A DNA stretch of 64,000 bases from an uncultured virus (IMG/VR IMGVR_UViG_2660238585_000005) (Duplodnaviria; Heunggongvirae; Uroviricota; Caudoviricetes), in IMG/VR virus record IMGVR_UViG_2660238585_000005. The stretch is one strand, 5' to 3'. The stretch's first letter is position 1. Every line of letters begins with the position of its first letter. The notes under the pieces were generated by a model, which was not told where the DNA came from, made no database searches, and worked only from the letters and a program-made list of their open reading frames with translations. The translations under genes and the position numbers were made by a program. This document shows positions 16,369-31,853 of this stretch, piece by piece.

Positions 16369-16408
16369 ATAAAAAAAGAAAGCTATATAGCTTCCTTTTT
16401 ATCTTTTA

Positions 16409-17218: not shown

Positions 17219-17269
17219 GTCATAACACCTCCAAGCTATATTATAACCTAAAAGGTAATAATTGGAAAT

Positions 17270-19191: not shown

Positions 19192-19243
19192 TTTTATTCC
19201 TCACTTTTTTATATATTTTTGGATTTTGGCAATAAAAAAAGAT

Positions 19244-20089
19244 TTAGTATAAATCTAAATCATTTAATAAATCTTCCTTTTCTTTTTCAATTGTATTTTC
19301 TACTTTTTTATCATCTTCTTTTTGATTCTGTAGATGTAAAAGTACTTTATTTGCAATTTCTTCTATATCTAGGCTTTGATTTTCATCACTTTTTTTATTT
19401 TCTTTAAATAAGTTTTTAGGAGTATTTTTATATTTATCTAAAAACTCTGATGAACAAGCTACTAATTCAAATTCATCCTCAACTTTTATATTAAATAGTT
19501 CCGCTGCACTTTCTCCAGTAAACCACTTTTCTTCATCCATTAAGGCCGACAATTTTTCTTTAGTAACTCCTTCTTTTGCATTTTCCATATAAATATTTAG
19601 TATGCTTTCTTTGCAACTATCCAATGTACTAGCAATTTTCCTTAGGTCTGATGCATTATATGAGTTCCATAGCATACATAAAGGATTATGAATCATAAAG
19701 CTAGCATATTTAGGGACTATAACTTCATCTCCTGCAAGTGCTATTACACTAGCTATACTTGCTGCTAATCCATCAACATGAACAGTCTTTTTACCTTTAT
19801 GTCTCTTTAGCATACTATAAATTGCTATTCCCCCAAATACAGATCCACCGCCAGAATTGATATATATATCTACATTTTGTGAATTCTCTAATTCTTTTAG
19901 GAAGTCACTTACATCTTGAGGGCATTTATCTTCGTCTGCCCACCAGCTACTCCAACTGTCTGAAACTATATCTCCATAGAAATAAAGCTCTGCTTTTTCT
20001 TCTGTTTGATTTTTTATTTCTATCTTACCAACATTTTTTAATTCTCCAGTTTTAGTATCTTTATTTTGTAAATTTAATATTTTATTCAC
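19244..20089 (-). CDS. ClpP-like prohead protease
   Basis: INSGGGSVFGG, DGLAASIASVI, MIHNP. Confidence 0.95.
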   Translation of the reverse strand: MNKILNLQNKDTKTGELKNVGKIEIKNQTEEKAELYFYGDIVSDSWSSWWADEDKCPQDVSDFLKELENSQNVDIYINSGGGSVFGGIAIYSMLKRHKGKKTVHVDGLAASIASVIALAGDEVIVPKYASFMIHNPLCMLWNSYNASDLRKIASTLDSCKESILNIYMENAKEGVTKEKLSALMDEEKWFTGESAAELFNIKVEDEFELVACSSEFLDKYKNTPKNLFKENKKSDENQSLDIEEIANKVLLHLQNQKEDDKKVENTIEKEKEDLLNDLDLY

Positions 20090-21344
20090 TGTTTTCGCCT
20101 CCTTTCGAATATTGCTTTCCTACATCTGTGATAGGTATATAGTTACCATTACAAATTAATACGTCTCCACCTTCTATTGCTGGCATATCTAAAATATCTC
20201 TAGCATTATTTGGAGTGTATATAGCATTATTTACAAATGATGTTAAGCACTCTGCTTGTGTTTTTGCATCTGTTCGTAAAATAGCTTTTTCATTGAATTT
20301 ATAATACTTATTTTCATTTTTCTCTTCATTACTTAATAATTTATAGCAGATTTCCTCTTCATATTGTTTTAATATAAATTGTTCTGTATCTACATAAAAG
20401 CTAAGTTGTTGCATTTCTCCACTTGAATAACTAGATTTTTCATAGTTATTTATTTGATTTGGCTTTATTCCAAATGCTCCTGCTATTTGAAGTGATGAAA
20501 ATTTCTTTAATTCATAAAATTGGCTATCTGTTAGCTTTATATTTAAAGGTGTTATTTTCATACCTAATGGTATAGGAATTATTTTACCTGCATTATCTGA
20601 ACCATTAGCAAACCTCGAAATACCTTCTATTAATTTATCTTCTTTTGACTTATCTAAATCACCTGTATATTCTAGTGTAGCCTTTGCAGTAAGTCCTGTT
20701 TTATAAAGGTTATTAATAAAGTTTTGACTTTCAACTCCACCCTCAAGTGTATATTTTAAAATTTTACTAACTGGCTCACCTAGTATCCCATCAAAGGTAA
20801 ATGAAGTTTTAAAGTGTAGCACTTCTTCATTTTTAAATACAAATTGTTCGCCTGTGTATCTATCAGTATAGATATACCAAAGTGCATCTTTAATTCCAAA
20901 TATACCTTTATTGTCCATAATAACTTGTACATCATTACTTGGCATAATCCACAAATCTTTTATTTCATATGTAGCCCCATATTTTTCACGTTTAAACTCT
21001 TTTCTTATATAGACATAGGAATTTCCAAAGTGATTTCTATTGTTTTCTACAGTTGCCCAAAATATCGATGGTGTCATATAAGGGTTAGGTCTAACCTTTA
21101 ATAAATCATATACTTTATTGGGGGCTGCTCTTATTACCCCCTTTTCAGTTTCTTGATACATTTTAATAGGCATTTTACCTAATGTCTCAGATAACATTTT
21201 TAAGCAAGTAAAATAAGTAACTTCACTTAAGATATTTTTATTTCTAGTTGTTATCCCTAGCCACTCTAATAACTTTTCACTTCTCATATCAACAGTTTGT
21301 GGTTTAGGCATTATTAGATTTTTTAAACTTTTTATAAGGTTCAT
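20082..21344 (-). CDS. Portal protein, HK97 family
   Basis: RPNPYMT, EVLHFK, IAGAFGI. Confidence 0.95.
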   Translation of the reverse strand: MNLIKSLKNLIMPKPQTVDMRSEKLLEWLGITTRNKNILSEVTYFTCLKMLSETLGKMPIKMYQETEKGVIRAAPNKVYDLLKVRPNPYMTPSIFWATVENNRNHFGNSYVYIRKEFKREKYGATYEIKDLWIMPSNDVQVIMDNKGIFGIKDALWYIYTDRYTGEQFVFKNEEVLHFKTSFTFDGILGEPVSKILKYTLEGGVESQNFINNLYKTGLTAKATLEYTGDLDKSKEDKLIEGISRFANGSDNAGKIIPIPLGMKITPLNIKLTDSQFYELKKFSSLQIAGAFGIKPNQINNYEKSSYSSGEMQQLSFYVDTEQFILKQYEEEICYKLLSNEEKNENKYYKFNEKAILRTDAKTQAECLTSFVNNAIYTPNNARDILDMPAIEGGDVLICNGNYIPITDVGKQYSKGGENSE

Positions 21345-21359
21345 TTTTACACCTCCCTT

Positions 21360-23081
21360 CTAATTCCATCCCATCATATCTAGATACTTATCAACTGATT
21401 CATTTACATTTACTAATCTTTCTTCTTTAAATGCTAACTTATATGCATCTATAATAGCATCTATTGGGTCTATTCTTTTATTTCTTCTATCTTTATCTAT
21501 CTTAATTTCTCCATTTGGATTAGATACAATTTTTGCATTTAAGGCTGACCATGAAAGTAACTCATTTTCTTTGTTATACTCAATATTTTTCGCTCTAACC
21601 TCAAGTTCAAAGTCCTCAGTAGGATCATTAAGCCATTTGTGAGTTTGATAAATTTCTATACAATCGAATCCTAACTCTGATAAATCACTTAAAAAAGCAT
21701 CTGCATTATGTGGATCATAGCCTAACTGTTCAATTTTAAGGTCGTATTTTTCAATAAGATCATTTAAATATTTAATTATATATTTATAGTCAGTTTTAAT
21801 ACCTCCTAAAGTTTCTGTAACTGTCAATAATTCATCTTTAATCCATAAATTATATGGTGCATCGTCACTTTTGATATGTTCCTCTACTTTCATTTTTGGT
21901 ATAAAACTATGAGAATGAATATAATACTTCTTAACCCCATCAACATAATATACAAACACCAATGCTATTGAAGTTAAGTCTCCTCCGGAACTTAAGTCTA
22001 ATCCTGCATAACATTTTTGCCCCCTAAAATCTTCTAGAGTTCTTTCACTTTCACATTCCTTCCAAAACTTAGGCTTTATATATTGATCATCTGTAAATTG
22101 AATCCATATATTTAACGCCTTTGTTAGAAAATCTCTTAAATCATCTCCACCCATATCTCTTGCAGAATCTCCTACTCCTTTTAAATTTTCAAGATCTTCT
22201 GCATCTTTACATACTAGTGGATTAGCTTTTATCCAATTTTTAGAGTTCCAAATATCATCTTCTTCATCCATTTCAGCTATATACACAAATTGAGCATCAT
22301 TAGTAAATACATTTTCTAAAATGTTTTTACAGTATTCATACAGCTTAAAACAAGGACAGTTTAATTCAAATCCAGCAGTAGTTATTACTGAAATTAAACA
22401 CTGTTTCATTTTTCTTGTACCACCCTCAAGCAACTTATACATTTGATTGTTCTTATGGGCGTGATATTCATCGACTATACCAAGCAACGGTCTAAAACCA
22501 TCTATTGATTTTGTATCTCTTCCTAATGCTCTTATTATAGAATTAGTATTTAAAGCTATTATTGTATTATCATGTTCCTTAACCTTAAAAAACTCTGATA
22601 GATCTTCATCAGAGTTAATAAACTTAATCATTTCATTTAATACTATTTTAGCTTGATCTGATTTAGTAGCCGTACAATATAGTTGTCCATATTTATAACC
22701 ACTAAAAGCCCCATAATATGTACCTAAAATACCATTTAAAAATGATTTTCCATTTTGTCTACCAAGCTGAACATACGATGTTCTAAATCTCCTATAGCCA
22801 GTATCTTTTGTAACCCATCCATTTAGGCATCCTAATATGAATACTTGAAATCCTTCTAAATTTACAGGGATTTCTTCCTCACCCTCTGCTATTGTAAGTG
22901 TTTCTGCAAAATCTAAAATATCATTTGCCTTTTCTATATCAAACTCATACTTATATGCATTTAATTTAGACTTCTCTAAGTCATCTAAATGTCTTTTACA
23001 TGCTAGGATTGCAGGTCTTCCAGCTATAATTTTCCCTTCTACTACATCTACCGCATATTGAGTAACCCTATCTAAATTCAC
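21360..23081 (-). CDS. Terminase large subunit (cos-type)
   Basis: GRQNGKS Walker A, DEYH, GLDLS, RIDPIDA. Confidence 0.95.
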   Translation of the reverse strand: MNLDRVTQYAVDVVEGKIIAGRPAILACKRHLDDLEKSKLNAYKYEFDIEKANDILDFAETLTIAEGEEEIPVNLEGFQVFILGCLNGWVTKDTGYRRFRTSYVQLGRQNGKSFLNGILGTYYGAFSGYKYGQLYCTATKSDQAKIVLNEMIKFINSDEDLSEFFKVKEHDNTIIALNTNSIIRALGRDTKSIDGFRPLLGIVDEYHAHKNNQMYKLLEGGTRKMKQCLISVITTAGFELNCPCFKLYEYCKNILENVFTNDAQFVYIAEMDEEDDIWNSKNWIKANPLVCKDAEDLENLKGVGDSARDMGGDDLRDFLTKALNIWIQFTDDQYIKPKFWKECESERTLEDFRGQKCYAGLDLSSGGDLTSIALVFVYYVDGVKKYYIHSHSFIPKMKVEEHIKSDDAPYNLWIKDELLTVTETLGGIKTDYKYIIKYLNDLIEKYDLKIEQLGYDPHNADAFLSDLSELGFDCIEIYQTHKWLNDPTEDFELEVRAKNIEYNKENELLSWSALNAKIVSNPNGEIKIDKDRRNKRIDPIDAIIDAYKLAFKEERLVNVNESVDKYLDMMGWN

Positions 23082-23094
23082 ATAAAATCACCCC

Positions 23095-23583
23095 CTATTT
23101 TGCAAACTTAGAAAACTTGTTTTTCTTTTCATCTGTACTTGGTTTAGGTATAACCAATCTGCATCTGCTAGATATAGTTAACCCCATATCTGAAGCAAAG
23201 CTTCTGCATTGTTTAATATGTCTATCTTCAATTATTGATAGTTTATTATATTCTTCAAAATCTTCCTGTGGATCTAATGAGTCTAATTTAAGAGCTACCT
23301 TTACATATCTACTATAAGCTTTTATATATGTAGCTAATGAGTTGCAATCTGGATTGCCCATTATACCTATATCTATTAGCTCTTTTGATATCTTTTTAAA
23401 CTGTTTTTTCTCTTCTTTTGTTAAGTGAGTAGGAGGTTTTATATTATCTGAATTTGCTTTTACTTCTGTACTTTTTCTTTGTTCAATCTCAGCTTTTGTA
23501 AGGTGTTTCTTACCATTTGCCACTACTAATTCAATTGGTTGTTTTTTGCCTGCCACCTTATTTTCCCTCCTATCCCTGTTCAA
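23095..23583 (-). CDS. Terminase small subunit, P27 family (true start probably GTG ~23556)
   Basis: NGKKHLTKAEI, MGLTISSRCRL. Confidence 0.9.
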   Translation of the reverse strand: MNRDRRENKVAGKKQPIELVVANGKKHLTKAEIEQRKSTEVKANSDNIKPPTHLTKEEKKQFKKISKELIDIGIMGNPDCNSLATYIKAYSRYVKVALKLDSLDPQEDFEEYNKLSIIEDRHIKQCRSFASDMGLTISSRCRLVIPKPSTDEKKNKFSKFAK

Positions 23584-23584
23584 A

Positions 23585-23670
23585 TTTTTCAGTGGGGAGT
23601 TTCCGCGGAAAAAAACTGCAACCGTGGACTTACGTCAAAAGCCAAAAACTTTTTGACTCCCCCCCTATCC
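23585..23670 (-). other. Probable cos packaging-site region
   Basis: GC-rich island between HNH and terS with G7 run, TCAAAAAGTTTTT and TTTTTTCCGCGGAAACTCCCC; exact overhang not determinable. Confidence 0.65.
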
Positions 23671-23671
23671 T

Positions 23672-24094
23672 TTAATAATTTTCTTTTATCAATTCTTTTA
23701 GTTCATTTTGCATCTTAATTTTAGATACTTCTCCTTTATCGTACATTCTATGTACCTTCTTATGACACCTATCTCATAAACATATAAGGTTATTCATATT
23801 TAATCTCTTGCTCCAGCAATCTTTTAAAGTCTCTATATGATGTACTACATCACTTAAGTTATCATCACATAACTTACATATACCATCATCTCTTTGCCTT
23901 ACAGAATCTCTAGTAAACTTCCATTCTTTACTACAATAAAATTTCTGTTCTTTAAAATCTACTCTTCGCTTTCTATAATCCTTATATACTTTCTGTTGTC
24001 TATTATTAAATTTAGCTTCACATTCAGAACACATAAAAATTTCTTGGGGAATAATTTTCCCACATCTACAAAACTTCTTTAACAAATTTATCAT
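23672..24094 (-). pseudogene. Packaging HNH endonuclease interrupted by in-frame TGA at 23774-23776
   Basis: CKLC..VHHI..NLICL*DRCHKKVH...ENY; the frame stays open for 33 sense codons after the TGA. Confidence 0.8.
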
Positions 24095-24237
24095 CTCTTT
24101 TAATTAAGTTTTCAGTTTAATGAATATATATTTCATGTTACTACCCAACTTATTCCTAGTTTTAAAAATAAAAAAGAACCCTATTTCTAGAGTTCATCTA
24201 AATACTTTATATTTTAGTTTCTTTTTACACTTTTTAT

Positions 24238-24651
24238 TTACATATCTTCATATAGATGGTGATTATATTGAATAGGTCCTTTTACATACTTATCTTCTTT
24301 ACTATCATATTCATATGTTACTAAAACAGTATTGTCATTTACACCTGGCTTATCAATTGCATGCAATAAAAATGCCATTGCGTTATTTTCGAAAATAACC
24401 ATTGCAGATTTATTTGCTTCTAAATAGTCATTTTCATCTAAAGTATCAATAGTTTTTAAAGCTTCCTTTTTTGATCTAATGTAGAATTTTTCAAAATCTT
24501 TGTCTGTCATTGAAATAGACCCCTTGTTATCTATTTCATATTTACTTTTTGGTGGGTTTTTATTATCGTTTTTGGCTTCGTGCTTATATCCACATCCAAC
24601 TAGTAAAACAATCATAACAACAATCAAAAGTAAACCTGATATTTTCTTCAT
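24238..24651 (-). CDS. Lipoprotein moron, unknown function
   Basis: Lipobox LVGC; own TATTAT and GGAGG; flanked by terminator-like hairpins. Confidence 0.75.
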   Translation of the reverse strand: MKKISGLLLIVVMIVLLVGCGYKHEAKNDNKNPPKSKYEIDNKGSISMTDKDFEKFYIRSKKEALKTIDTLDENDYLEANKSAMVIFENNAMAFLLHAIDKPGVNDNTVLVTYEYDSKEDKYVKGPIQYNHHLYEDM

Positions 24652-24760
24652 TTTAATACACCTCCAAAGTATATAATACGGTTACCTTAAGTTTTAATCT
24701 ACCTATTTTTACCAATTCGTAATATTTAGTGAATTAAATAAGTATTATAAATCTTTAGCT

Positions 24761-24798
24761 AAATAAAAAAGAACCCTTTTAAAGAGTTCTTTTTTATT
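24761..24798. terminator. Terminator after Mn-catalase
   Basis: AAATAAAAAAGAAC...GTTCTTTTTTATTT. Confidence 0.75.
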
Positions 24799-24800
24799 TA

Positions 24801-25484
24801 CTATTTTTTTATTGGTTCATTGAAAGAAGGCGGATTAATATCTATCTTTGTATTATGATTGTTAGGTCCCGGACTAGATAAGTCAAAGTATAGTTTAGAG
24901 TCTTCAGTAACTCCAAAGTCTCTATTTGAACCTGTATCTTTAATCTTATTTAATGCATCTCTAAATAAAGCATTATGAGCTTCTTCTCTGTTAAGTAAGA
25001 AGTCTATTGTTTCTCTTACATATTTATCGTCAATTTGTCTATATAAATATTCATATACAACTTTTGCTCTTTGCTCTGATGCTATATTTGATAATAGATC
25101 TGCAACTAAGTCTCCTGTTACAGTAACATAATCAGCAGTCCAAGGTGCTCCTGAAGAGTTTATTAAAAATGGTGATAATCCACTTAATACATGAGTTTCT
25201 ATTTCTCCAGAATCAACTGCTTTATAATCAACATCATGTCCATTTAATAAATTTATTGTTTGAGCAACCATTTCCATATGGCTAAGTTCTTCCGCTGCTA
25301 TATCTAGAAATAAATCTTTTATCTCTTTATCTTTTATTCTAAAGCTTTGAGATAAATATTGCATTGCTGCTTTTAACTCTCCATTTCCTCCTCCTAATTG
25401 CTCTTGCATTAAAACTGCATATTGAGGATTTGGTCTTTCTACTTTTACTTCTCTTAACAATTTTTTATCATGTTTAAACATCAA
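24801..25484 (-). CDS. Manganese catalase family protein
   Basis: EQLGGGNGELKAAMQY, EELSHMEM, REEAH metal ligands. Confidence 0.92.
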   Translation of the reverse strand: MMFKHDKKLLREVKVERPNPQYAVLMQEQLGGGNGELKAAMQYLSQSFRIKDKEIKDLFLDIAAEELSHMEMVAQTINLLNGHDVDYKAVDSGEIETHVLSGLSPFLINSSGAPWTADYVTVTGDLVADLLSNIASEQRAKVVYEYLYRQIDDKYVRETIDFLLNREEAHNALFRDALNKIKDTGSNRDFGVTEDSKLYFDLSSPGPNNHNTKIDINPPSFNEPIKK

Positions 25485-25512
25485 CTATACCTCCAAAATC
25501 ATAATTAGTAAT

Positions 25513-25542
25513 TATAATTTCCCTTAAGCTTTAGTAATATAC
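25513..25542 (-). promoter_or_regulatory. sigmaF-like forespore promoter for the Mn-catalase
   Basis: GTATA-N15-GGAAATTATA versus B. subtilis sigmaF consensus GYWTA-N15-GGnnAnAnTW. Confidence 0.55.
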
Positions 25543-25748
25543 AAATTTTTCTATAATTTATTAGATGTTTAAATTGATTATAAATGCCTTATGAACGTAA
25601 CATATCTAATAGTGTGTTATATTCATTTTATCAACTTATATACCCACTGTAGGCTTAGTATTTACAATGATTTCAACCTTTATTTTTTCTATGTAAAATA
25701 AACCAATATAACATTCTCTTTTTATGTTATATTCTAGATAAAATTAAA

Positions 25749-26297
25749 TTAAAAATATCTAAAGCTAGTATAAGCTTTATTCATTCTGTCTTGGTCTATA
25801 CCTATATAATGTAAGGTTACAGCTGGAGATGAATGATTAAATATCTTCTGAAGTAATGCTATATCTTTGGTTTGCTTATAGTAATGATATCCCCATGTTT
25901 TTCTCATACTATGAGTTCCTAAACAAGGAACATCGAATAATTCTCCCAACTCTTTTAAAATTACATATGCCCTTTCTCTAGAGATAGGCCTATTATAGTT
26001 TTTACGTGATTTAATTAAAAAATCATCAGGATCCTTGTCCTCTACATAATCTTTAATTGCTCTTTTCAGTATTGGGTTTATCTCTATGAATTTTTGTTTC
26101 CCTGTTTTCTTTTCTCTTAAGACTATTTGCCTTTTATCTTTTACATCATATATCCTAAGCTTCAATATATCTGATACTCTAAGACCTGTATATATACCCA
26201 TCATAAATAGAAGGTAGTCTCTTTCATTTGTCTTTTTTAAATATGAACACATATTTTCTAATGTATCTAAATTTCTAATAGGTTCTACATAGTTCAT
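25749..26297 (-). CDS. Small tyrosine recombinase (catalytic domain only)
   Basis: TGLRVSD, HSMRKT, FNHSS, LHYIG. Confidence 0.92.
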   Translation of the reverse strand: MNYVEPIRNLDTLENMCSYLKKTNERDYLLFMMGIYTGLRVSDILKLRIYDVKDKRQIVLREKKTGKQKFIEINPILKRAIKDYVEDKDPDDFLIKSRKNYNRPISRERAYVILKELGELFDVPCLGTHSMRKTWGYHYYKQTKDIALLQKIFNHSSPAVTLHYIGIDQDRMNKAYTSFRYF

Positions 26298-26344
26298 ATC
26301 TCACCACCCTAGATTTTATTTACCCAAAATACTATAAATAAAAT

Positions 26345-26377
26345 AAAAAAGCCAGGTGAGAAAGTCCTGGCTTTTTT
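26345..26377. terminator. Intrinsic terminator in late leader of prophage 1
   Basis: A6-GCCAGG...CCTGGC-T6. Confidence 0.8.
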
Positions 26378-26419
26378 GAACGTAATAAGTTGTTGCTAAT
26401 AAATCTAATAAATGTAACT

Positions 26420-26546
26420 AGTTTATACTCCATACCGCTACAGAGTGCTCTTAAGAGCCGTAAAGTTATATTGGTGAGGGTTAAAGGGAATCGAACCTCT
26501 TATCTTCTAAATAAATAGCTATTTTGCCATTAAACTATATCCTCAC
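26420..26546 (-). ncRNA. Conserved late-leader RNA: tRNA-like cloverleaf + boxA-like motif + GCGG hairpin (copy 1)
   Basis: GAGGATA-TA-GTTTAATGG...GGTTCGATTCC...CCTCACCA then CGGCTCTT and ACTCTGTA-GCGG-TATGGAGT; homolog at 57050-57180. Confidence 0.65.
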
Positions 26547-26681
26547 GTTGCTAGGGTAAATTTATACCCTAGCCATTATATAAAGATGGGGGTTATTAGG
26601 AAATAAGCAATTGAGTTATTTTAAATTTCCTATACTACTATATTACCACCTCTGAATGTATAAAAAATCTTTACTTTGTCG

Positions 26682-27185
26682 CTAAAATGTAGCCAAAGTG
26701 TTGGCTTTGCTATTATTTTCATTAAATAATGGTAGTTCTTCATAGTTTGGATACAACATACCCATAATTTTATAAACTAATCGCTCTCTTACTGTGTAGC
26801 AATGACTGCGATCCATGTGTAGCTTAAGGCTTATATATTTCATATTATTTTTATTTTTGCTATTATAAAATAATTCAAAGAAATTAGTTTCATTAACATC
26901 TAAGCAACTTAATGAGTTTTCTATTTTCGCTTTCTCTATTTCTTTTTCTAGTTTACTTTGCATCAATTTATCTATTTTCTTCTCTTTATCTATAACCTCT
27001 TTTTCAACAATTCTAGAAATATTATAAGTTTCACTTGTTCTTTCATCATAATTTATAGCTCCACAACCTCTATATCTCATTTTCTCTTTCTTTATATCTA
27101 ATTCTATATTATTTATTTGAGCTTCTAGAAACTTATAATTATGCAATCTTACTTCTACTCTTTTAAATAATTCTTTTTTCTCCAT
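26682..27185 (-). CDS. ArpU/RinA-family late transcriptional activator
   Basis: VEVRLHNY N-terminus, coiled coil, C-terminal sigma4-like HTH; upstream of packaging genes. Confidence 0.8.
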   Translation of the reverse strand: MEKKELFKRVEVRLHNYKFLEAQINNIELDIKKEKMRYRGCGAINYDERTSETYNISRIVEKEVIDKEKKIDKLMQSKLEKEIEKAKIENSLSCLDVNETNFFELFYNSKNKNNMKYISLKLHMDRSHCYTVRERLVYKIMGMLYPNYEELPLFNENNSKANTLATF

Positions 27186-27209
27186 AGGCAGTCACTTCCC
27201 GTTTTTCTT

Positions 27210-27467
27210 TTAATCAATAATATCTTTCATTTCCTCTAGACATTTTTCACATATAAAAATGTTTTTGATGTTTTTTAAATTCTCTTTTGATCCACATAAA
27301 ATACACGAATTATTATGTTTTTTAAGCTTAATAGTTCCATTTTCACATAATATTTCAACTGGATCATTTTCATTTATATTTAACATTCTTCTAAATTCCT
27401 TTGGTATTACGATTCTTCCTAGTGAATCGATATTTCTTACAATGCCTTTATTATTTTTGCCATTCAT
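27210..27467 (-). CDS. abrB: AbrB-family transition-state regulator
   Basis: GIVRNIDSLGRIVIPKEFRRML plus clostridial C-terminal CxxC...CxxC. Confidence 0.9.
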   Translation of the reverse strand: MNGKNNKGIVRNIDSLGRIVIPKEFRRMLNINENDPVEILCENGTIKLKKHNNSCILCGSKENLKNIKNIFICEKCLEEMKDIID

Positions 27468-27798
27468 ACTATCACTCCTAACATATTTCTAACAATTTCT
27501 ATCAATAAAACTACCTATATAAATATATTTATCATCTAAGGTAACCCTTGTATATCTATATGATTAATTATTATATACCCTTATTCTTAATTTTTACTTA
27601 ATTAAAATAAAATTTATATAAACTTTCATAATAAATTTAAATTTTATATTTAAATTTACTGAGTTTTTGAATATTTTTCAATAAATAGACAAATAATAAA
27701 ATTGACATTTGAAGATATCAATATATTTTACCCTTTAACAGTTTAAATGCAGTTTATTTAGACTATTTTCAAATTTTAACTCTCAATATCCAATTCCC

Positions 27799-27827
27799 AA
27801 AAGGACTAGTTAACGCTAGTCCTTTTT
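27799..27827. terminator. Bidirectional terminator
   Basis: AAAAGGACTAG...CTAGTCCTTTTT. Confidence 0.8.
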
Positions 27828-27848
27828 AACTCTAAATAAAAAATATTC

Positions 27849-27947
27849 TCAACTTATACCTATACTAGCAAATAGCTTAAAACAAATTAAAATTATAATA
27901 GCTATAACTATAGCAATTAATATAAACAATTTGTCTCGATTTTTCAT
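27849..27947 (-). CDS. 32-aa single-TM peptide MKNRDKLFILIAIVIAIIILICFKLFASIGIS
   Basis: Translated by hand; RBS AGGTGG. Confidence 0.55.
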   Translation of the reverse strand: MKNRDKLFILIAIVIAIIILICFKLFASIGIS

Positions 27948-27990
27948 ATTTTCCACCACCTATAACTCATCTTTCTTTTAATCTATAAAT

Positions 27991-28221
27991 TTATTCATCC
28001 CTATTTCCACCTCTGATCCCCCAAGCACTCATTATTTTATCTGCACTTTCTGGAAACCTTAGTTTTCCATTAATCTCTTTACCACATATACATTGTGCTA
28101 GCGCCATATAATTTGGATATGTTTTATAGTCACTTGCTTTAAAGAATGTTTCTTTTACACTGGGTATACTAAGTCCTATTTCAACATACTTTAACTCTGT
28201 TGATTTACTCATTTTTATCAC
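27991..28221 (-). CDS. Conserved phage hypothetical protein (homolog of 58275-58508)
   Basis: TFFK.SD.KTYPNYMALAQCICGKEINGK shared by both prophages. Confidence 0.8.
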   Translation of the reverse strand: MIKMSKSTELKYVEIGLSIPSVKETFFKASDYKTYPNYMALAQCICGKEINGKLRFPESADKIMSAWGIRGGNRDE

Positions 28222-28750
28222 CCCTTATTTTATACTCAAGTTTATATCTCTTTCTAAAAAGTCTTTTAGCTTCTATTGCTTGATTTAAATTACCTCTGCT
28301 AGCATTTAAATAATCACATGCTTTATTAACACTCTCAAACTCTATAGTCTCATTTTTTAATTTGTCTATAACTATCAACGGCTTTCTTTCAACTTCTCTT
28401 ATAGTTTCTAAAGCTTGTATCCTAAACCTCTTTCTAAACAATCTATTGTGCTTTATATAAGTTGTTATATCTGCCCTTCTCATATCTAGAAATTTACAAC
28501 AATCATCTAATCCATCAAACTCCATTTCTTTCTCTTCTACTTCATCTACTACCTTAACTTTATAATTATAATTCTGTTTAGGTTTAATCTTTCTATAATG
28601 TCCTCCTTTATCATCTTTAGGATCATCAAGTACTATATGTTTAATAGCTTTTCCTATACTTAAACTTGGATTTAATATGCAAGCTAATAAAGCAAGATAG
28701 TTATCTGTAAAATCAAAATCACAAGAATTAGAATATTTCACTCTAATCAC
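28205..28750 (-). CDS. Putative DNA-binding protein with two NUMOD1-like HTH repeats (homolog of 58613-59152)
   Basis: EFDGLDDCCKFL and EFESVNKACDYL repeats. Confidence 0.7.
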   Translation of the reverse strand: MIRVKYSNSCDFDFTDNYLALLACILNPSLSIGKAIKHIVLDDPKDDKGGHYRKIKPKQNYNYKVKVVDEVEEKEMEFDGLDDCCKFLDMRRADITTYIKHNRLFRKRFRIQALETIREVERKPLIVIDKLKNETIEFESVNKACDYLNASRGNLNQAIEAKRLFRKRYKLEYKIRGDKNE

Positions 28751-28878
28751 CCCTATTTAATTTTTTGTTTTATATTTAAACCTATAAATAATAATCTAAT
28801 TTCTTTCTTATTATTTAAAATATGACATATTCTTAGTAATCCATTTTTTATTTTAGATAAATTTTTATTACATATCCT

Positions 28879-28908
28879 GAATTTATAATTTTTCCTCTAC
28901 ACATAATA
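28879..28908 (+). promoter_or_regulatory. sigmaG-like forespore promoter
   Basis: GAATT-N18-CATAATA versus GHATR-N17/18-CATAHTA. Confidence 0.45.
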
Positions 28909-28930
28909 GTTGTATAAAGGAGGTGAATAT

Positions 28931-29386
28931 ATGTTTATAAAAAAATTAAGCATTGTATTTTCAATTGTATTAATTCTATTTGCAATAAATATAAATACAA
29001 CCTATGCATTTAATTCTCTAACTCCTCCACCCATTAGCAACGAATATATTAAAGAGTTAGAAATAATAGATAATTATATGTATTTATTAGTAAAATCTGT
29101 TGCTACAAAAAGCATTGATCCAGATAAAGTCAATAAAGACATTAGATTTATAGAAACATTAATCAATAATTTAACTATTCATACTTCAAAGCTTTCTAAA
29201 GAAGATAATGATATTATTCTAGCTATGCAGTCCATATTAAACTATTACAAAATTTCTATAATAAATATAAGAGTTTATATAGAGAAGAATGATTCAGATA
29301 GATTAATAGATTCTATTGCTTCTTTTTCTTTAGGTTATAACTCTTCATCAACTTTAAGAAACATTATAGGAAAAGCGAAACAATAA
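28931..29386 (+). CDS. Secreted helical protein (moron, opposite strand)
   Basis: AAGGAGGTG RBS before ATG 28931; signal peptide ending TYA. Confidence 0.75.
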   Translation: MFIKKLSIVFSIVLILFAININTTYAFNSLTPPPISNEYIKELEIIDNYMYLLVKSVATKSIDPDKVNKDIRFIETLINNLTIHTSKLSKEDNDIILAMQSILNYYKISIINIRVYIEKNDSDRLIDSIASFSLGYNSSSTLRNIIGKAKQ

Positions 29387-29459
29387 GTTCTCGCTTTTCT
29401 TATATAAATTACAACCTTATCTCTACTAGGCATTTTTTATCTTAATCTTAGATGTAAAC

Positions 29460-29591
29460 TTACCAAACTCTATATTCTCTTTTGAATACCTCTAAAGCTT
29501 CTAACCATGCTTCTTGTTCTGTTATACCTCTATCTTTGGCAATCTGCTTTGCTATGTCTCTAAGAATCTTGGCTGCTTCTATTATTCCCAT
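29460..29591 (-). CDS. 43-aa phage protein MGIIEAAKILRDIAKQIAKDRGITEQEAWLEALEVFKREYRVW
   Basis: Translated by hand; AGGAGTG RBS directly after the initiator gene. Confidence 0.7.
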   Translation of the reverse strand: MGIIEAAKILRDIAKQIAKDRGITEQEAWLEALEVFKREYRVW

Positions 29592-29605
29592 AGTTTATAT
29601 CACTC

Positions 29606-30289
29606 CTAATTTCCTTTTTTTGAACTTAACTTGTCTTTGCATATTTTATGTATATACTTCCAATATCCCTCGCTGCCTTTTGGTGATTTAATTGTTCCAT
29701 CTTCAACAGATATATCTACTGCTAAAACTATACTTTTTAGTTCACTATCAGATAATTTATACATACCTTTTATACTATTCAAATCTGTGGATAAATTTAC
29801 ACTAGTTACTCTATCAATAGATATAGTATTAGGATATGGTAATAGGGTATTTTGTTCGGGATTTAAATCCGTACCGTAAGGATTTATATCCGTACCCTCG
29901 GGATTTATTTCCGATAGCTTCGGATTTAAATCCGATGTCCTATAGTTAGTATCTATTAATAATTTATAGTTTCTACCTAGAGCATAATAAGAATACGTCC
30001 CTACTATTTTTACTGTTTTATGTTTTAATATTCCTATTTTGCACATCTTCTTTAGTCTTCTATAGACTGTATCTTTTTTCATCTTCGTAATAGGTATATC
30101 CTCTGTTACACCATCATACTTAATCCAATAGTACTTATCATCTGAAATAATCTTTGATATCATTCTTTCACTATCTTTAAATTTTACAAACCATTTTAGT
30201 ATCAATAGATCTCTATCATCTAATTCAAGTTCTATTGCTTTTTCTTGGCTAAATCCATGTATGCTATACTCCAAGAAACTCACCCCCAC
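29606..30289 (-). CDS. Replication initiator (winged HTH) with internal iterons
   Basis: N-terminal wHTH (KDTVYRRLKKM); 21-bp-period repeats mid-gene. Confidence 0.8.
   Translation of the reverse strand: MGVSFLEYSIHGFSQEKAIELELDDRDLLILKWFVKFKDSERMISKIISDDKYYWIKYDGVTEDIPITKMKKDTVYRRLKKMCKIGILKHKTVKIVGTYSYYALGRNYKLLIDTNYRTSDLNPKLSEINPEGTDINPYGTDLNPEQNTLLPYPNTISIDRVTSVNLSTDLNSIKGMYKLSDSELKSIVLAVDISVEDGTIKSPKGSEGYWKYIHKICKDKLSSKKGN
29859..29933. repeat. Four palindromic iterons GGATTTAWWTCC at 21-bp period (probable origin)
   Basis: Copies start at 29859, 29880, 29901 and 29922. Confidence 0.85.
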
Positions 30290-30427
30290 TTTATTTAAAT
30301 CTATTAATTTATAAGTTTTACTTGTAGTTATATCTATCTACGTATATAATTAAATTGGAATTTTTTATTGGGTCCTTCTGGACTCTTTTTTTTATTTTCA
30401 TTAAATTAATGTTTTGAAATATTGTAT

Positions 30428-30550
30428 TTAACAATGTTGCTTGTCCTCTTTTTGCTTATTATAAGCTTTTAATTCATCAAATTTATTATCTAGTTCTTGT
30501 CCTAAATAGCTATATTTTTTCATAAAACTTTGAAGTATTTTTATACTCAT
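30428..30550 (-). CDS. 40-aa hypothetical protein MSIKILQSFMKKYSYLGQELDNKFDELKAYNKQKEDKQHC
   Basis: Translated by hand; AGGAGTG RBS. Confidence 0.55.
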   Translation of the reverse strand: MSIKILQSFMKKYSYLGQELDNKFDELKAYNKQKEDKQHC

Positions 30551-30589
30551 TTAACTCACTCCTTGTACAAATTTTCATTGCCAAAGAGC

Positions 30590-30856
30590 CTAAGCTCCTT
30601 GTTTATCGTTATATTCTTTAATCGCTATTTCTTTAGCTTCTTCATAACTCAAACCAGTTTCTTCTAACTCCTTTGTTCTAATCCATATTGGGTAAGCTAT
30701 ACTCAATGCTTCATCCCCATATTTTTCTCTTTGTCTATCAAGTATCCATTTAGCTTTTCTTCTTTCTATTTCCTCAATCCAATATGGATCTTCTGGGTAA
30801 ACTACCTCAACTTTTATTTCTCTGCTTTTTCTTGGTGCCATTGCAACCACCCCCAC
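30590..30856 (-). CDS. Small early protein, candidate recombination directionality factor (likely start ATG 30841)
   Basis: Beta strand-Pro-helix pattern, position after cro/antirepressor, sporulation-type promoter; function is inference. Confidence 0.55.
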   Translation of the reverse strand: MGVVAMAPRKSREIKVEVVYPEDPYWIEEIERRKAKWILDRQREKYGDEALSIAYPIWIRTKELEETGLSYEEAKEIAIKEYNDKQGA

Positions 30857-30859
30857 TAA

Positions 30860-30889
30860 ATTTTATGTTTATTAAAAATTGTCCTATGC
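30860..30889 (-). promoter_or_regulatory. sigmaE-like promoter with embedded SpoIIID-consensus site
   Basis: GCATA-N17-CATAAAAT; TAGGACAATT fits WWRRACARnY; same motif at 62886-62915. Confidence 0.65.
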
Positions 30890-30892
30890 AAT

Positions 30893-31453
30893 TTATCTTG
30901 ATTTACTAACTTCCAAATCTACTTTTACAGTAACTTTTGATTTTTCAAGCTCTTCTCTTTGTTCTGCTATTACAATTGTTTTAATATAATTTCTCAATCT
31001 TAAAACCTCTAATTCTTCTTCTTTTTGCTTTAAAAGAATCTCTTTGCTTTCTAGCGTTTTATTTAATATGTTTACAGCTTTTTCTAAGATTACTTTTTCA
31101 TCGTCTTCGGTGGATATTGGAATATATCCACCAGTAAGTCGTATCTGTTTTAATATTTTCTTAATTTCCTTTTTTAGCTTCTTAGCTATAGGTTTTCTAC
31201 TTTGCATTAAAACTTCATAAAGTCCATCTTCTGTTAAAAACCACATTTCTCTGACCTGACCACTATAATGTATCGGTGAGGTTTGTTTTTCATCTTGGTC
31301 AACTGACTTTAACAGTTGACCAACTTTATCACTAGAGTATCCTATCCATTCAGCTACATCCTTTGCTAAAAATAATGGATTTTCTAAAGTTCCAAATGTC
31401 GTTATTTCTTTTCCAAGAATTTTTCTACTGTCCAATATCTCAAAGTTATTCAT
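30893..31453 (-). CDS. BRO-N domain antirepressor-like protein
   Basis: PLFLAKDVAEWIGY, LTEDGLYEVLMQSRKPIAK, IRLTGGY. Confidence 0.9.
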   Translation of the reverse strand: MNNFEILDSRKILGKEITTFGTLENPLFLAKDVAEWIGYSSDKVGQLLKSVDQDEKQTSPIHYSGQVREMWFLTEDGLYEVLMQSRKPIAKKLKKEIKKILKQIRLTGGYIPISTEDDEKVILEKAVNILNKTLESKEILLKQKEEELEVLRLRNYIKTIVIAEQREELEKSKVTVKVDLEVSKSR

Positions 31454-31475
31454 TTCAATCCTCCTTTATATTTTA

Positions 31476-31853
31476 AGAACATTTTGTTCTTTTAGTTTTC
31501 AAAAAAAATTTCATCAATTGTAGAATTTAATACTAAAGCTATTCTTTTTGCTAAAAATATACCTGGATTTTTTTTACCTCTTTCTATCATAGATATATAG
31601 TCCTTTGTAACTCCTACTTGTTCTGCTAACTCTGATTGAGTTAAATTTTTATTTTTTCTATAGAACTTTAAATTACTTTTATACATATCTCACCTCTTTT
31701 AAGAACTTTTTGTTCTCTTTATATTATATATGTTATAGAACTTTTTGTTCTTAGTCAAGTATTTTTAGAATTTTTTGTTCCTTTCGTTTGTATTTGTTTT
31801 TATATCTGTAACAATGTGCTATATTTAACTTATAAAATAGAACAATTTGTTTG
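31476..31853. promoter_or_regulatory. Five operator palindromes AGAAC-N5-GTTCT around cro/repressor
   Basis: Exact copies at 31476, 31702 and 31737; degenerate copies at 31767 and 31839. Confidence 0.8.
31492..31686 (-). CDS. Cro-like XRE regulator
   Basis: LTQSELAEQVGVTKDYISMIERG. Confidence 0.92.
   Translation of the reverse strand: MYKSNLKFYRKNKNLTQSELAEQVGVTKDYISMIERGKKNPGIFLAKRIALVLNSTIDEIFFEN

What the first reader, a model, noticed from the sequence alone, without database searches (positions are those of the whole stretch)
26345..26680. Late-leader RNA module: tRNA-like cloverleaf, boxA-like motif, GCGG hairpin, then terminator (prophage 1)
Seen on the minus strand after arpU/rinA: a TG/-10 type promoter, a 73-nt tRNA-like fold ending CCA with a collapsed anticodon arm, a 50-nt block TATAACTTTACGGCTCTTAAGAGCACTCTGTAGCGGTATGGAGTATAAACT, then a strong terminator; more terminators lie before terS. 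Known: lambda nut is boxA (CGCTCTTA) plus a hairpin. Inference: an RNA-based antitermination or processing element gating late genes, possibly undescribed in clostridial phages.
Basis: partly seen in the sequence, partly recalled or inferred. Interest (0 to 1): 0.82.

Follow-up and report, generated by a model that had tools for sequence, protein, structure and literature searches.

The report
Phage late-gene leader with tRNA relic
Between a prophage's late-gene regulator and its packaging genes lies a conserved transcribed leader that holds a worn-down tRNA, a small conserved RNA hairpin and a terminator the polymerase must pass, so it probably gates late gene expression in a family of clostridial phages.

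Summary
On the minus strand, after a sigma-region-4-like late regulator gene (phrog_36), come a conserved TG-extended -10 promoter, a 73-nt tRNA-like element ending ACCA (Rfam tRNA 29.7 bits, cut-off 29; not called by ARAGORN), the 50-nt block and a strong intrinsic terminator (T1). A second copy sits in the window's other prophage, directly before terS. I retrieved 72 distinct versions from Paraclostridium-type prophages. The tRNA-like part descends from a phage tRNA gene: some relatives keep a canonical cloverleaf, others a collapsed anticodon arm (this window), a 58-83-nt insertion, only an acceptor/T-arm minihelix, or nothing. The cloverleaf covaries strongly. The "boxA-like" string is one strand of a variable hairpin, not a boxA. 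The constant parts are one 20-nt hairpin followed by AUAAAC, and T1 (72 of 72). Late-side genes without room for a promoter start 20-47 nt behind T1, so T1 must be read through. No alternative fold competes with it. Best reading: a late-operon leader resembling lambda PR'-6S-tR', with a tRNA-derived processing element as passenger and antitermination set up at the promoter or hairpin. How read-through happens is not shown. It is a new variant of a known kind and of moderate interest.

The parts
26682..27185 (-). late regulator gene (167 aa), sigma-region-4-like C-terminal domain, RinA/ArpU/Ltr-like
   Evidence: It matches phrog_36 at E 7.6e-24. The profile hits sigma region 4 of FliA/SigA at E 0.018-0.8. 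In the AF2 model (pLDDT 79.5) the best Foldseek rows are sigma-28 and SigA region 4, all with E >= 0.26. RinA TIGR01636 is below its cut-off.
26640..26648 (-). P1: TG-extended -10 (TGGTAATAT), the likely regulator-dependent late promoter
   Evidence: A TGn(T/G)AnnnT element occurs after the regulator stop in 48 of 52 distinct leaders from Paraclostridium, C. difficile, C. tetani and Terrisporobacter phages. The start site has not been mapped.
26598..26631 (-). promoter-proximal hairpin AGGAAAU...AUUUCCU
   Evidence: It appears in the MFE fold. Relatives have equivalent hairpins of other sequence, such as CUUAGG/CCUAAG and GGAAAU/AUUUCC.
26575..26580 (-). P2: consensus -10 TATAAT, 2 nt before the next hairpin
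   Evidence: A -10-like element sits 2-6 nt before the hairpin in the other lineages read. Its function is inferred.
26551..26572 (-). hairpin CUAGGGUA...UACCCUAG, just 5' of the tRNA-like element
   Evidence: The stem sequence differs between lineages while the hairpin is kept (CCAGGG/CCCUGG, GGCUAGAU/AUCUAGCC, GCCAGG/CCUGGC).
26472..26544 (-). tRNA-like element with encoded A-CCA: a decayed phage tRNA
   Evidence: Rfam scores it 29.7 bits and ARAGORN does not call it. Across 32 distinct relatives the cloverleaf pairs in 92.8% of cells, against 83.9% in shuffles (0 of 500 shuffles as high), and 8 of 21 pairs change on both sides. In this copy the acceptor pairs at 5 of 7 positions.
26447..26458 (-). 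hp1, GCUC-UUAA-GAGC (the 'boxA-like' string)
   Evidence: It is variable, compensated or absent in relatives.
26419..26446 (-). core hairpin ACUCUGUA-GCGG-UAUGGAGU plus tail AUAAACUA
   Evidence: It is present in all 72 distinct modules, but the retrieval pattern fixed most of its positions. Pair 6 is G.U in 38, A-U in 19, G-C in 12 and unpaired in 2, and is never A.C. In L237/L238 the stem is diverged, with C-G changed to G-C at pair 2, while the tail is the same. In the scan anchored on the tRNA 5' end, 48 of 70 distinct stretches also carried the block.
26378..26418 (-). A/U-rich spacer with GCAACAAC and UUACGUUC motifs
   Evidence: RNA-library contigs of two studies end in an adapter at 26391. 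This is a weak hint of an RNA end, and the strand is unknown.
26340..26377 (-). T1, an intrinsic terminator (A-run, GCCAGG...CCUGGC stem, U-run)
   Evidence: A terminator follows the core by 20-68 nt in 72 of 72 modules. The median stem pair probability is 0.97.
24762..24791 (-). T2, terminator after the Mn-catalase-like cargo gene
24168..24195 (-). T3, terminator after the lipoprotein-like cargo gene, 74 nt before HNH
57359..57844 (-). second copy: regulator (161 aa, 30% identical to the first)
57105..57178 (-). second copy: tRNA-like element. ARAGORN calls it 'tRNA-Lys UUU'; it is below the Rfam cut-off and lacks CCA.
57049..57076 (-). second copy: core hairpin and tail
56959..56995 (-). second copy: T1, whose U-run ends 26 nt before the terS start codon (terS 56239..56934)

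Best explanation
The stretch is the transcribed leader of the prophage's late (packaging, virion, lysis) operon. It is a module shared by Paraclostridium (P. sordellii-type) prophages and, in altered form, by C. difficile phiC2-like phages. Its order is as follows. First comes the sigma-4-like late regulator gene, then a short regulator-type-specific region and a conserved TG-extended -10 promoter (P1). A promoter-proximal hairpin follows, then a second -10 (P2) with a hairpin, then a tRNA-derived element, then two small hairpins (hp1 and the near-constant core hairpin with its AUAAAC tail). Last is the intrinsic terminator T1, directly in front of the first late-side gene. Shown here: the parts, their order, their conservation, RNA-strand covariation, and the absence of room for a promoter behind T1. 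Inferred: (1) The tRNA part is a phage tRNA gene of Glu/Lys type that sits in the leader, much as tRNA genes lie near stx, downstream of Q, in Stx phages. It no longer decodes in this window. What survives across lineages is the acceptor/T-arm top half, a U at -1, a G at +1 and mostly NCCA. That is the set RNase P and the 3' tRNA-processing enzymes read, so I take it to persist as a self-excising processing signal that leaves a structured end on the downstream RNA. (2) T1 is a gate. Polymerase that starts at the late promoter must be made terminator-resistant. This could come from the regulator acting like lambda Q, from the core hairpin acting like a put, conAn2 or canT RNA, or from both together as in the bipartite conAn system. 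The same resistance would carry transcription over the terminators of cargo genes inserted between T1 and terS.
For: A second copy in the same window is followed by terS 26 nt after T1. All 72 distinct modules have T1 20-68 nt after the core. The first ORF with an RBS starts 20-47 nt after the U-run in 22 of 34 distinct downstream types. These include terS (phrog_509) and HNH (phrog_144), as identified. T1 forms with median probability 0.97 and no competing fold was found. Prophage 1 has two more terminators before HNH/terS, and both prophages have terminator-like hairpins inside the late operon (16397..16369, 15615..15587, 53643..53617). The tRNA cloverleaf covaries: covariation score 0.298 against 0.147 in shuffles (0 of 500 as high) and at most 0.078 when the partners are slid. 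The minihelix acceptor runs G-C, then G.U, then A-U between C. difficile and Paraclostridium phages. Every tRNA-like form parsed (GAGGATA-type start) and every minihelix variant begins with G. The nucleotide before it is U in all 16 minihelix variants (fixed by the search pattern) and in the tRNA-like sequences read. L161, L285 and L190 keep the core and T1 without any tRNA-like part. The core is constant although the regulators differ: phrog_36 members are 23-83% identical to the window's regulator, and some loci carry phrog_1558. P1 is conserved. The regulator's C-terminus is sigma-4-like. One RNA-library contig of the second-copy type starts 2 nt before the tRNA-like 5' end and runs through T1 for 1139 nt into terS and terL. 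Adapter-joined ends lie at 26391 in two studies. Passages read in papers: Ltr/RinA proteins are the only phage factor needed for terS expression, and a terminator lies between ltr and terS (PMC3152322, PMC3753634). RNA antiterminators exist in Gram-positive mobile elements (PMC8191782; PMC11658703).
Against: No transcript ends, cleavage or read-through were measured. The RNA data are assembled contigs, which cannot show strand, level or true ends and may contain DNA. In staphylococcal phages the published order is terminator and then the RinA-dependent promoter, with the regulator acting as an activator, so antitermination is not needed there. T1 could simply be a leaky attenuator. The core hairpin is far smaller than known RNA antiterminators. 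Its covariation is thin: it consists of one-sided changes plus one diverged lineage, 3 of 72 versions break a pair, and the retrieval pattern fixed most positions. Phages with the same regulator family (Terrisporobacter TPDSL_ph2, C. tetani phiCT19406A, C. difficile phiC2 and phiCD27) lack the core. Most modules come from one host genus and are closely related, so conservation is partly due to recent common descent. The window's own tRNA-like copy has 2 unpaired acceptor positions, which may make it a poor RNase P substrate.
Confidence: 0.45

Rival explanations
1. RNA-only processive antiterminator. hp1 and the core hairpin fold in the nascent leader, bind RNA polymerase as HK022 put does, and make it ignore T1 and the terminators downstream. 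The regulator only switches the promoter on.
For: The core is the only element between P1 and T1 shared by all 72 modules, including the three without a tRNA-like part. It is constant across different regulator families, which fits a host target. The two-hairpin layout lies near the promoter in L161. Several terminators lie downstream. put, EAR, conAn2 and canT are precedents (passages).
Against: If it acted constitutively in cis, every transcript reaching T1 would already carry it, and a conserved strong T1 20-68 nt behind it would have no job. It is very small. It is absent from related phages with the same promoter-terminator-gene layout, one of which has only about 25 nt between promoter and terminator. 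No Rfam family matches.
Confidence: 0.2
2. Stand-alone small RNA or tRNA gene. Under this reading P2 to T1 is a self-contained unit expressed in the lysogen. Its product, a tRNA or tRNA-like RNA with a hairpin trailer, would act in trans. It might supplement the tRNA pool, act as a decoy for tRNA-targeting host defences, or serve as an sRNA. T1 would simply be its terminator.
For: P2 has a consensus TATAAT, and T1 closes the unit. Some relatives carry canonical cloverleaves with anticodons UUC, UUU, UGA and UGG on nearly the same body. RNA-library contigs cover the module in 4 of 4 runs laid. The analogy is the short 6S transcript from lambda PR' to tR' (recalled).
Against: Late-side genes sit behind T1 without a promoter, so the unit cannot be fully insulated. 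The decoding parts are the ones that decay, and three lineages drop the tRNA part altogether yet keep the core and T1. Anticodon changes on one body do not fit changed aminoacylation identity. A serine anticodon appears without the long variable arm expected of tRNA-Ser, a feature I recall rather than tested.
Confidence: 0.2
3. Relic without function. A tRNA gene that decayed in place, with neighbouring sequence conserved only because these prophages diverged recently and recombine often.
For: Most modules come from closely related proviruses. Many differ by only a few bases. The window's copy is among the most degenerate.
Against: The flanks downstream of T1 are mosaic and unrelated between loci, while the module stays intact up to the U-run. 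The two copies in the window sit next to regulators only 30% identical and different terminases, yet share the block almost base for base. Stems change with compensation. The minihelix is shared with C. difficile phages.
Confidence: 0.1
4. DNA-level site: a pac or cos packaging site, an attachment site, or a protein operator.
For: The place, just upstream of terS, is where pac and cos sites often lie. A small tyrosine-recombinase-like gene follows in prophage 1.
Against: Two prophages with unrelated terminases share the module: Terminase_4 with a 573-aa TerL and an HNH gene, against an HTH-type TerS with a 404-aa TerL. The stems tolerate G.U on the minus strand only, which would be A.C mismatches in the opposite strand. 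A full-length degenerate tRNA does not look like an attP core. The recombinase-like gene is cargo found in only some loci.
Confidence: 0.03

Closest known systems
Lambda late switch: Q gene, PR', 6S leader, tR', with tRNA genes near stx in Stx phages
   Same: A regulator gene lies directly upstream. A promoter is followed by a leader of about 200-300 nt that ends in a strong terminator. The late genes and terminator-flanked cargo ('morons') lie behind it. tRNA genes are found in that region of Stx2 phages (passages in PMC6266700, PMC7946995, PMC8022706).
   Different: The regulator here is a RinA/ArpU-like sigma-4-type protein, not a known Q. The only Q-like signal is phrog_79 at E 6e-4 with no stretch passing, and that is for one relative's regulator. 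The host is Gram-positive. The tRNA has decayed to a top-half minihelix. A conserved hairpin lies before the terminator. Antitermination itself is not shown.
RinA/ArpU/Ltr late activators of Gram-positive phages
   Same: The gene sits directly upstream of the packaging genes. The sequence just after the gene is regulator-specific and is followed by a region conserved between phages. A terminator lies in the ltr-terS interval (passages).
   Different: There the order is described as terminator and then the terS promoter. Here the conserved promoter comes first and the terminator abuts the first gene. No tRNA-like element or leader hairpin is mentioned in the passages read. The supplementary figures with those sequences could not be seen.
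RNA antiterminators: HK022 put, EAR, conAn2 (with ConAn1), Tn916 canT
   Same: These are cis-acting structured RNAs near the promoter of a long mobile-element operon that contains internal terminators. conAn also places a small protein gene just upstream of the RNA.
   Different: The candidate here is a 20-nt hairpin with a 7-nt tail and a small neighbouring hairpin, which is much smaller. A terminator follows within 20-68 nt. No homology was tested, since no sequences of those elements were fetched.
Lambda nut (boxA plus boxB)
   Same: A short sequence motif followed by a hairpin in a leader.
   Different: The boxA-like string is not conserved and is itself part of a hairpin. No N-like protein is evident. 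The position is the late leader, not the early one.
tRNA-like processing signals and RNase P substrates outside tRNA. Examples are the phage P1/P7 C4 and P4 CI RNAs, plant mitochondrial t-elements and mascRNA (all recalled, none from a call).
   Same: An acceptor/T-arm mimic is embedded in a longer transcript, where recognition by tRNA-processing enzymes rather than decoding would be the selected property.
   Different: Cleavage has not been tested here. The element descends visibly from a true tRNA gene and is still a canonical tRNA in some phages.

Membership tests
tRNA (Rfam RF00005) | covariance-model score at or above the gathering cut-off | tested here: met
   29.7 bits against 29 for 26544..26476. 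The P. sordellii plasmid copy scores 34.5 bits. The second window copy is not listed at the gathering threshold.
tRNA (functional decoder) | 7-bp acceptor stem, and a 5-bp anticodon stem with a 7-nt loop | tested here: not met
   In the window copy, acceptor pairs 5 and 7 are unpaired and the anticodon arm is about 3 bp with a 6-nt loop. ARAGORN gives no call. Relatives L028, L036, L040 and L002 are called Ser-UGA, Pro-UGG, Glu-UUC and Lys-UUU.
tRNA (descent) | cloverleaf supported by covariation among homologues | tested here: met
   32 distinct sequences: 92.8% of cells paired, 8 of 21 pairs changed on both sides, 0 of 500 shuffles reached the score, and slid controls paired in 41-57% of cells.
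lambda-type nut site | conserved boxA sequence upstream of the hairpin | tested here: not met
   The string varies (GCTCTTAA, GCTCTTTG, GCTCTCAA, GTTCTGAT...). It pairs as hairpin hp1 and is absent in L128-, L139- and L161-type leaders.
lambda-type nut site | cognate N-like RNA-binding antiterminator protein | not tested
   No candidate was looked for beyond the regulator gene.
intrinsic terminator | G+C-containing hairpin followed by a U-run | tested here: met
   26377..26340, stem energy -10.5 kcal/mol by my script. Found in 72 of 72 modules. Stem sequences differ between lineages while the hairpin is kept.
processive antitermination system (Q, put, conAn or canT type) | read-through of terminators that depends on the element | not testable with these tools
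   Only the layout is shown: genes without a promoter behind T1 and further terminators downstream.
RinA/ArpU family (upstream gene) | curated family model above its cut-off | tested here: not met
   TIGR01636 scores 17.4 bits against a cut-off of 31.9, and there is no Pfam family at E <= 0.01. The gene matches phrog_36 'transcriptional regulator' at E 7.6e-24, and similarity to sigma region 4 is weak.
RNase P substrate | coaxial acceptor/T-stem stack, U at -1, G at +1, 3' RCCA (features recalled from the RNase P literature) | tested here: inconclusive
   The sequence features are present in most lineages. The window copy has a weakened acceptor stem. Cleavage was not tested.

The most novel reading that the evidence does not exclude
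Clostridial temperate phages gate their late operon with a terminator placed right behind the late promoter, and escape it by an undescribed antitermination device. In this reading the RinA/ArpU-type 'activators' work as Q-like antiterminators together with a tiny conserved leader hairpin. tRNA-derived minihelices are kept in the leader as RNase P-dependent punctuation that gives the late mRNA a protected, tRNA-shaped 5' end.
Probability: 0.2. Interest if true: 0.8.

Novelty: new variant of a known kind. Interest (0 to 1): 0.55.

Why it matters
Late-gene control in phages of Gram-positive bacteria is known mainly from staphylococcal RinA, which is described as a plain activator. Here the conserved terminator sits between the conserved promoter and the first late gene, and related C. 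difficile, C. tetani and Terrisporobacter phages show the same layout. If read-through is regulated, the regulator family may need to be re-read as antiterminators, or a new small RNA antiterminator exists. The series from cloverleaf to minihelix to nothing is also a clear natural case of a tRNA gene being whittled down to the part that processing enzymes read. In addition, the site behind T1 is a cargo hot spot. In phiSemix9P1 the record annotates a binary-toxin gene there. How transcription crosses T1 would therefore bear on when such cargo is expressed.

Tried and rejected
- **DNA and assembly searches.** blastn of the 421-nt region against the phage collection found nothing. The window's own assembly is not held.
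- **Rfam.** At E <= 10, only tRNA is credible. The other 17 rows are far below their cut-offs and mostly lie on the terminator. The phiC2 leader has no family either.
- **boxA.** Rejected, for the reasons given in the membership test.
- **Leader peptide.** The AUG inside the core (GGUAUGGAG) is AUA or ACG in other lineages, so no conserved ORF exists.
- **Built-in antiterminator fold.** None was found; the T1 pair probability has a median of 0.97 over 50 distinct leader 3' parts.
- **Pairing of the AUAAACUA tail with the D-arm UAGUUUA.** Seven complementary bases were noticed, but the tail is kept in leaders that lack the tRNA part. I treat this as chance.
- **Similarity of the spacer UCUCRU to the acceptor 5' strand.** Noted but not pursued.
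- **RNA contigs.** Depth figures (for example 403 against 80 in X15) cannot rank parts. In X17 no contig of the first-copy type was laid below 26391, which proves nothing. Strand and true ends are unknown.
- **Regulator fold search.** No PDB match reached E <= 0.001.
- **Family-wide pattern scan.** 9 of 112 genomes matched with at most 1 mismatch. Reading the loci, 6 genomes (7 loci) are true modules and 3 are chance matches in coding sequence. The reversed-pattern control gave 11 hits.
- **Retrieval patterns.** The genome contigs pattern gave 6 loci, of which 2 are true (Paraclostridium tenue and P. dentum) and 4 lie in unrelated phyla and look like chance matches (only L042 and L046 were read). 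One of the 38 loci with the exact 18-mer (L024) is a coding-sequence chance match.
- **Earlier notes of this scan.** Nothing was returned.
- **Literature.** Full-text searches found no description of a tRNA-like element or conserved hairpin in the late leader of clostridial phages. The search for 'difficile + prophage + tRNA-like + sRNA' found 0 papers. This covers only the held library.
- **Decoy idea.** The notion that the tRNA-like RNA is a decoy against anticodon nucleases could not be tested.
- **Not used.** Complex prediction, the protein-atlas search and the large homology searches were not run.
Full report
**What is there.**
All features below are read on the minus strand. The ORF 26682..27185 encodes a 167-aa protein that matches phrog_36 'transcriptional regulator' (E 7.6e-24). 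It has no Pfam family, and RinA TIGR01636 scores below its cut-off (17.4 against 31.9 bits).

A profile of ten such regulators hits sigma region 4 of FliA and SigA weakly (E 0.018-0.8). An AlphaFold model (pLDDT 79.5) shows a long helical hairpin followed by a small helical domain. Its best Foldseek rows are sigma-28 and SigA region 4, all at E 0.26 or worse. 'arpU/rinA-like' is therefore a fair but unproven label.

Downstream of the gene, in order:
- a TG-extended -10, TGGTAATAT (26648..26640)
- a hairpin (26631..26598)
- a consensus TATAAT (26580..26575)
- a second hairpin (26572..26551)
- the tRNA-like element (26544..26472)
- a small hairpin, hp1 (26458..26447)
- the 20-nt 'core' hairpin ACUCUGUA-GCGG-UAUGGAGU with tail AUAAACUA (26446..26419)
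- an A/U-rich spacer
- the terminator T1 (26377..26340)

The 351-nt stretch folds better than shuffles (z -3.73).

**The tRNA-like element.**
Rfam's tRNA model matches at 29.7 bits, just above its cut-off of 29. ARAGORN does not call it. The rest of the 601-nt region matches no Rfam family credibly.

**A second copy and the family.**
The window's other prophage carries the same module at 57283..56959. It lies after a regulator only 30% identical to the first and directly before terS. The two prophages use different terminases, yet the block is almost identical between them.

Three scans of public collections recovered relatives:
- An exact 18-mer of the block found 38 viral loci, one of them a chance coding match.
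- A scan anchored on the tRNA 5' end, which is independent of the block, gave 70 distinct stretches. Of these, 48 carried the block and the other 22 looked like chance 16-mers.
- A degenerate pattern for the core found 63 viral and 9 metagenome loci.

Together these gave 72 distinct module sequences. Most positions of the core were fixed by that last pattern, so its apparent constancy is partly built in.

The host is Paraclostridium-like. The regulator is 96% identical to genes on P. sordellii plasmid or phage-plasmid records. True genome hits are in P. tenue and P. dentum. By my reading of the loci, 6 of 112 family genomes hold the module. Regulators 58% identical occur in C. difficile phages phiC2, phiCD119, CDMH1 and others.

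**The tRNA-like part is a decaying tRNA gene.**
Among 35 distinct tRNA-like versions there are several grades:
- Canonical cloverleaves that ARAGORN calls Glu-UUC, Ser-UGA, Pro-UGG or Lys-UUU, on nearly the same body.
- Versions with a 3-nt anticodon loop.
- The window's type, with about 3 bp and a 6-nt loop, two unpaired acceptor positions and an A.C or bulge in the T stem.
- Versions with 58-83 extra bases in the anticodon arm.

Four further lineages keep only an acceptor stem plus a T-arm-like hairpin, a minihelix (L139, L141, L164, L168). Three have no tRNA-like part at all (L161, L190, L285).

On an alignment of 32 distinct sequences, the cloverleaf pairs in 92.8% of cells. Column shuffles give 83.9% (0 of 500 as high), and sliding the partners gives 41-57%. 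Eight of 21 pairs change on both sides, four of them in the T stem.

[quoted passage not shown] Its acceptor runs CAGGU/ACCUG, then CAGGU/ACUUG, then CAAGU/ACUUG, and its T stems change as CUAAG/CUUAG, CUAGG/CCUAG, GUUGG/CCAAC and GCAGG/CCUGC across 16 variants. G.U pairs are tolerated on this strand only, so the conserved object is an RNA read from the minus strand.

What persists is the acceptor/T-arm stack, U at -1, G at +1 and usually NCCA. From what I recall of the RNase P literature, this is what RNase P reads. I therefore infer that selection holds the element as a processing signal rather than as a decoder. Cleavage was not tested.

**The block.**
Its sequence varies with compensation (GGCUCU/AGAGC, GGUUCU/AGAGCC, GGUUCU/AGAACC), and it is replaced or missing in several lineages. 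It is not a boxA.

The core hairpin is the persistent piece. Among the 72 versions, pair 6 is G.U in 38, A-U in 19, G-C in 12 and unpaired in 2, and is never A.C. Pair 5 is U.G or U-A, with one U.U. A metagenome lineage whose regulator is 68% identical (L237/L238) has a diverged stem, AGUCUGU...GCAGACU. It carries a C-G to G-C swap at pair 2 and the same AUAAACUA tail. This supports a hairpin plus a single-stranded tail, but the support is modest.

In L161 the core follows the TG-type promoter by about 15-20 nt. The junction reads AACTC|TGTAG. In the window the tRNA-bearing segment lies between AACTC and CACTC|TGTAG. The tRNA cassette therefore looks like an insert, or L161 like a deletion, between short repeats. 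That is an inference.

**The terminator is a gate.**
Every one of the 72 modules has a hairpin plus U-run 20-68 nt after the core (median 45). The stems differ between lineages.

The first ORF with an RBS begins 20-47 nt after the U-run in 22 of 34 distinct downstream types. Examples:
- terS in the window's second copy, 26 nt after the U-run
- terS in L144, 36 nt (phrog_509)
- the HNH gene in L133, 30 nt (phrog_144)
- a small conserved ORF (MKKWKDADEV...) in many lineages

There is no room for a promoter with a usable leader in these gaps, so these genes must be transcribed through T1.

In the thermodynamic ensemble, T1 forms with median pair probability 0.97 over 50 distinct leader 3' parts. 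No alternative fold in cis competes with it.

In prophage 1 the space between T1 and HNH/terS holds cargo: a small tyrosine-recombinase-like gene, an Mn-catalase-like gene and a lipoprotein-like gene. Two more terminators lie there, at 24791..24762 and 24195..24168. In relatives the DNA behind T1 is mosaic from the U-run onward. Terminator-like hairpins also lie inside both late operons. This is the layout of a 'moron' hot spot in an operon read by terminator-resistant polymerase, as in lambdoid phages (passages in PMC8022706 and PMC6266700).

**Where transcription starts.**
A TGn(T/G)AnnnT element lies within 140 nt after the regulator stop in 48 of 52 distinct leaders. Three of the four misses are loci with a broken regulator frame. 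The element is followed by TATAG and a hairpin, and preceded by short repeats that differ with regulator type. Examples are GAGACT repeated four times in phiCD27, TTCCCC-type in phiC2 and TTCCGTA-type in the Terrisporobacter phage.

The same pattern, a specific region and then a conserved region, is described for staphylococcal Ltr/RinA phages (passages). There, however, the terminator is said to precede the terS promoter.

In Terrisporobacter phage TPDSL_ph2 the promoter-like element is followed after about 25 nt by a terminator, and then at once by an RBS and ATG. C. tetani phiCT19406A has two hairpins, a terminator and then the gene. The promoter-terminator-gene layout is thus general for this regulator family, while the tRNA-like part and the core are not. 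This favours a protein-dependent (Q-like) or mixed route to read-through over a purely RNA-based one.

The only direct hint of Q-likeness is a weak phrog_79 match (E 6e-4, no stretch passing) for one relative's regulator. That lambda Q has a sigma-4-like fold is something I recall, not something from a call.

**RNA evidence.**
Four RNA-library runs hold the stretch as assembled contigs. Contigs cover the module in all four.
- In two different studies (X15, X17) a contig ends at 26391 joined to library adapter. That position is in the spacer, 14 nt before the T1 stem.
- In X17, a 1271-nt contig whose loose ends match the second-copy flanks starts 81 nt upstream of the block, which is 2 nt before G+1 of that tRNA-like element. 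It continues 1139 nt downstream, across T1 into terS and terL.
- A contig in X15 also bridges T1.

These fit processing near the tRNA 5' end and read-through of T1. They are weak, however: contigs show neither strand, level nor true ends, and DNA may be present in the libraries.

**Reading and rivals.**
I read the stretch as the leader of the late operon. It is a Gram-positive counterpart of lambda's PR'-6S-tR' region that has taken in a tRNA gene, now kept mainly as a processing signal. T1 acts as a gate that polymerase starting at the late promoter must be enabled to pass.

The enabling factor may be the regulator, the core hairpin, or both as in the bipartite conAn system (passages). Tn916 canT shows that RNA antiterminators occur in such elements. 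I give this reading 0.45.

Rivals:
- RNA-only put-like antiterminator: 0.2
- self-contained tRNA or sRNA unit acting in trans: 0.2
- functionless relic: 0.1
- DNA site: 0.03

No search of the held literature found this module described. The supplementary figures of the RinA and Ltr papers, which show their intergenic sequences, could not be seen.

**Verdict.**
It is a new variant of a known kind of late-gene control, with one element (the core hairpin) that has no known counterpart. Interest 0.55.

Noticed in passing
window 23774..26340 and loci L123-L185 downstream of T1: The DNA between T1 and HNH/terS is a cargo hot spot that is mosaic from the T1 U-run onward. In the window it holds a 182-aa tyrosine-recombinase-like gene, an Mn-catalase-like gene and a lipoprotein-like gene, two of them followed by their own terminator (T2, T3). 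Relatives carry unrelated ORFs of up to 674 aa there.
   Followed up: partly
L200 (phiSemix9P1, KX905163.1) 1929..3426: In this C. difficile phage record, a gene annotated as the binary-toxin subunit cdtB lies on the opposite strand, about 320 nt beyond the homologous regulator ('putative sigma factor'). That is the same cargo position.
   Followed up: no
L123:3122-3265 and many other loci; also L237, L239, L285: A small conserved ORF (46-68 aa, MKKWKDADEVIKMIHELP...) is the first gene behind T1 in many lineages. It matches no PHROG family.
   Followed up: partly
L196 (phiC2) 4095..4420: The leader of C. difficile phiC2-type phages is a strongly structured RNA of about 300 nt (z -4.78). It has a 5' hairpin, two tRNA-like acceptor/T-arm elements and a terminator. 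No Rfam family matches it, and the record has no annotation there.
   Followed up: partly
L046, L172, L192 (tRNA-like elements): These loci have 58-83 extra bases inside the anticodon arm of an otherwise intact tRNA-like element. The insert is too short for a group I intron. Its nature is unknown.
   Followed up: no
window 26391: RNA-library contigs from two different studies end at this exact base joined to adapter sequence. It could be an RNA 3' end on the minus strand or a 5' end on the plus strand.
   Followed up: partly
window 27210..27467 (-): An 85-aa gene with an AbrB/MazE-type domain and a zinc-ribbon-like tail lies directly upstream of the regulator gene. The same gene precedes the regulator on the P. 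sordellii plasmid record.
   Followed up: no
window about 3800..31500 and about 39000..62600: The window holds two complete-looking prophage gene sets on the same strand, each with its own regulator, terS and terL. The nearest public provirus record (63,206 bp, rated 100% complete) spans both, so that record is probably two prophages in tandem.
   Followed up: no
window 16397..16369, 15615..15587, 53643..53617 (-): Terminator-like hairpins with U-runs lie in intergenic gaps inside both late operons. One follows the 269-aa ORF 16409..17218 and one follows the 461-aa ORF 53635..55020.
   Followed up: no
L133/L153/L172 versus their T1: In these lineages the hairpin 5' of the tRNA-like element and the T1 hairpin share about 12 identical bases (GGCTAGATTAAT). 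Elsewhere the two hairpins draw on the same few stem sequences. The meaning is unclear; it may be duplication or long-range pairing.
   Followed up: no
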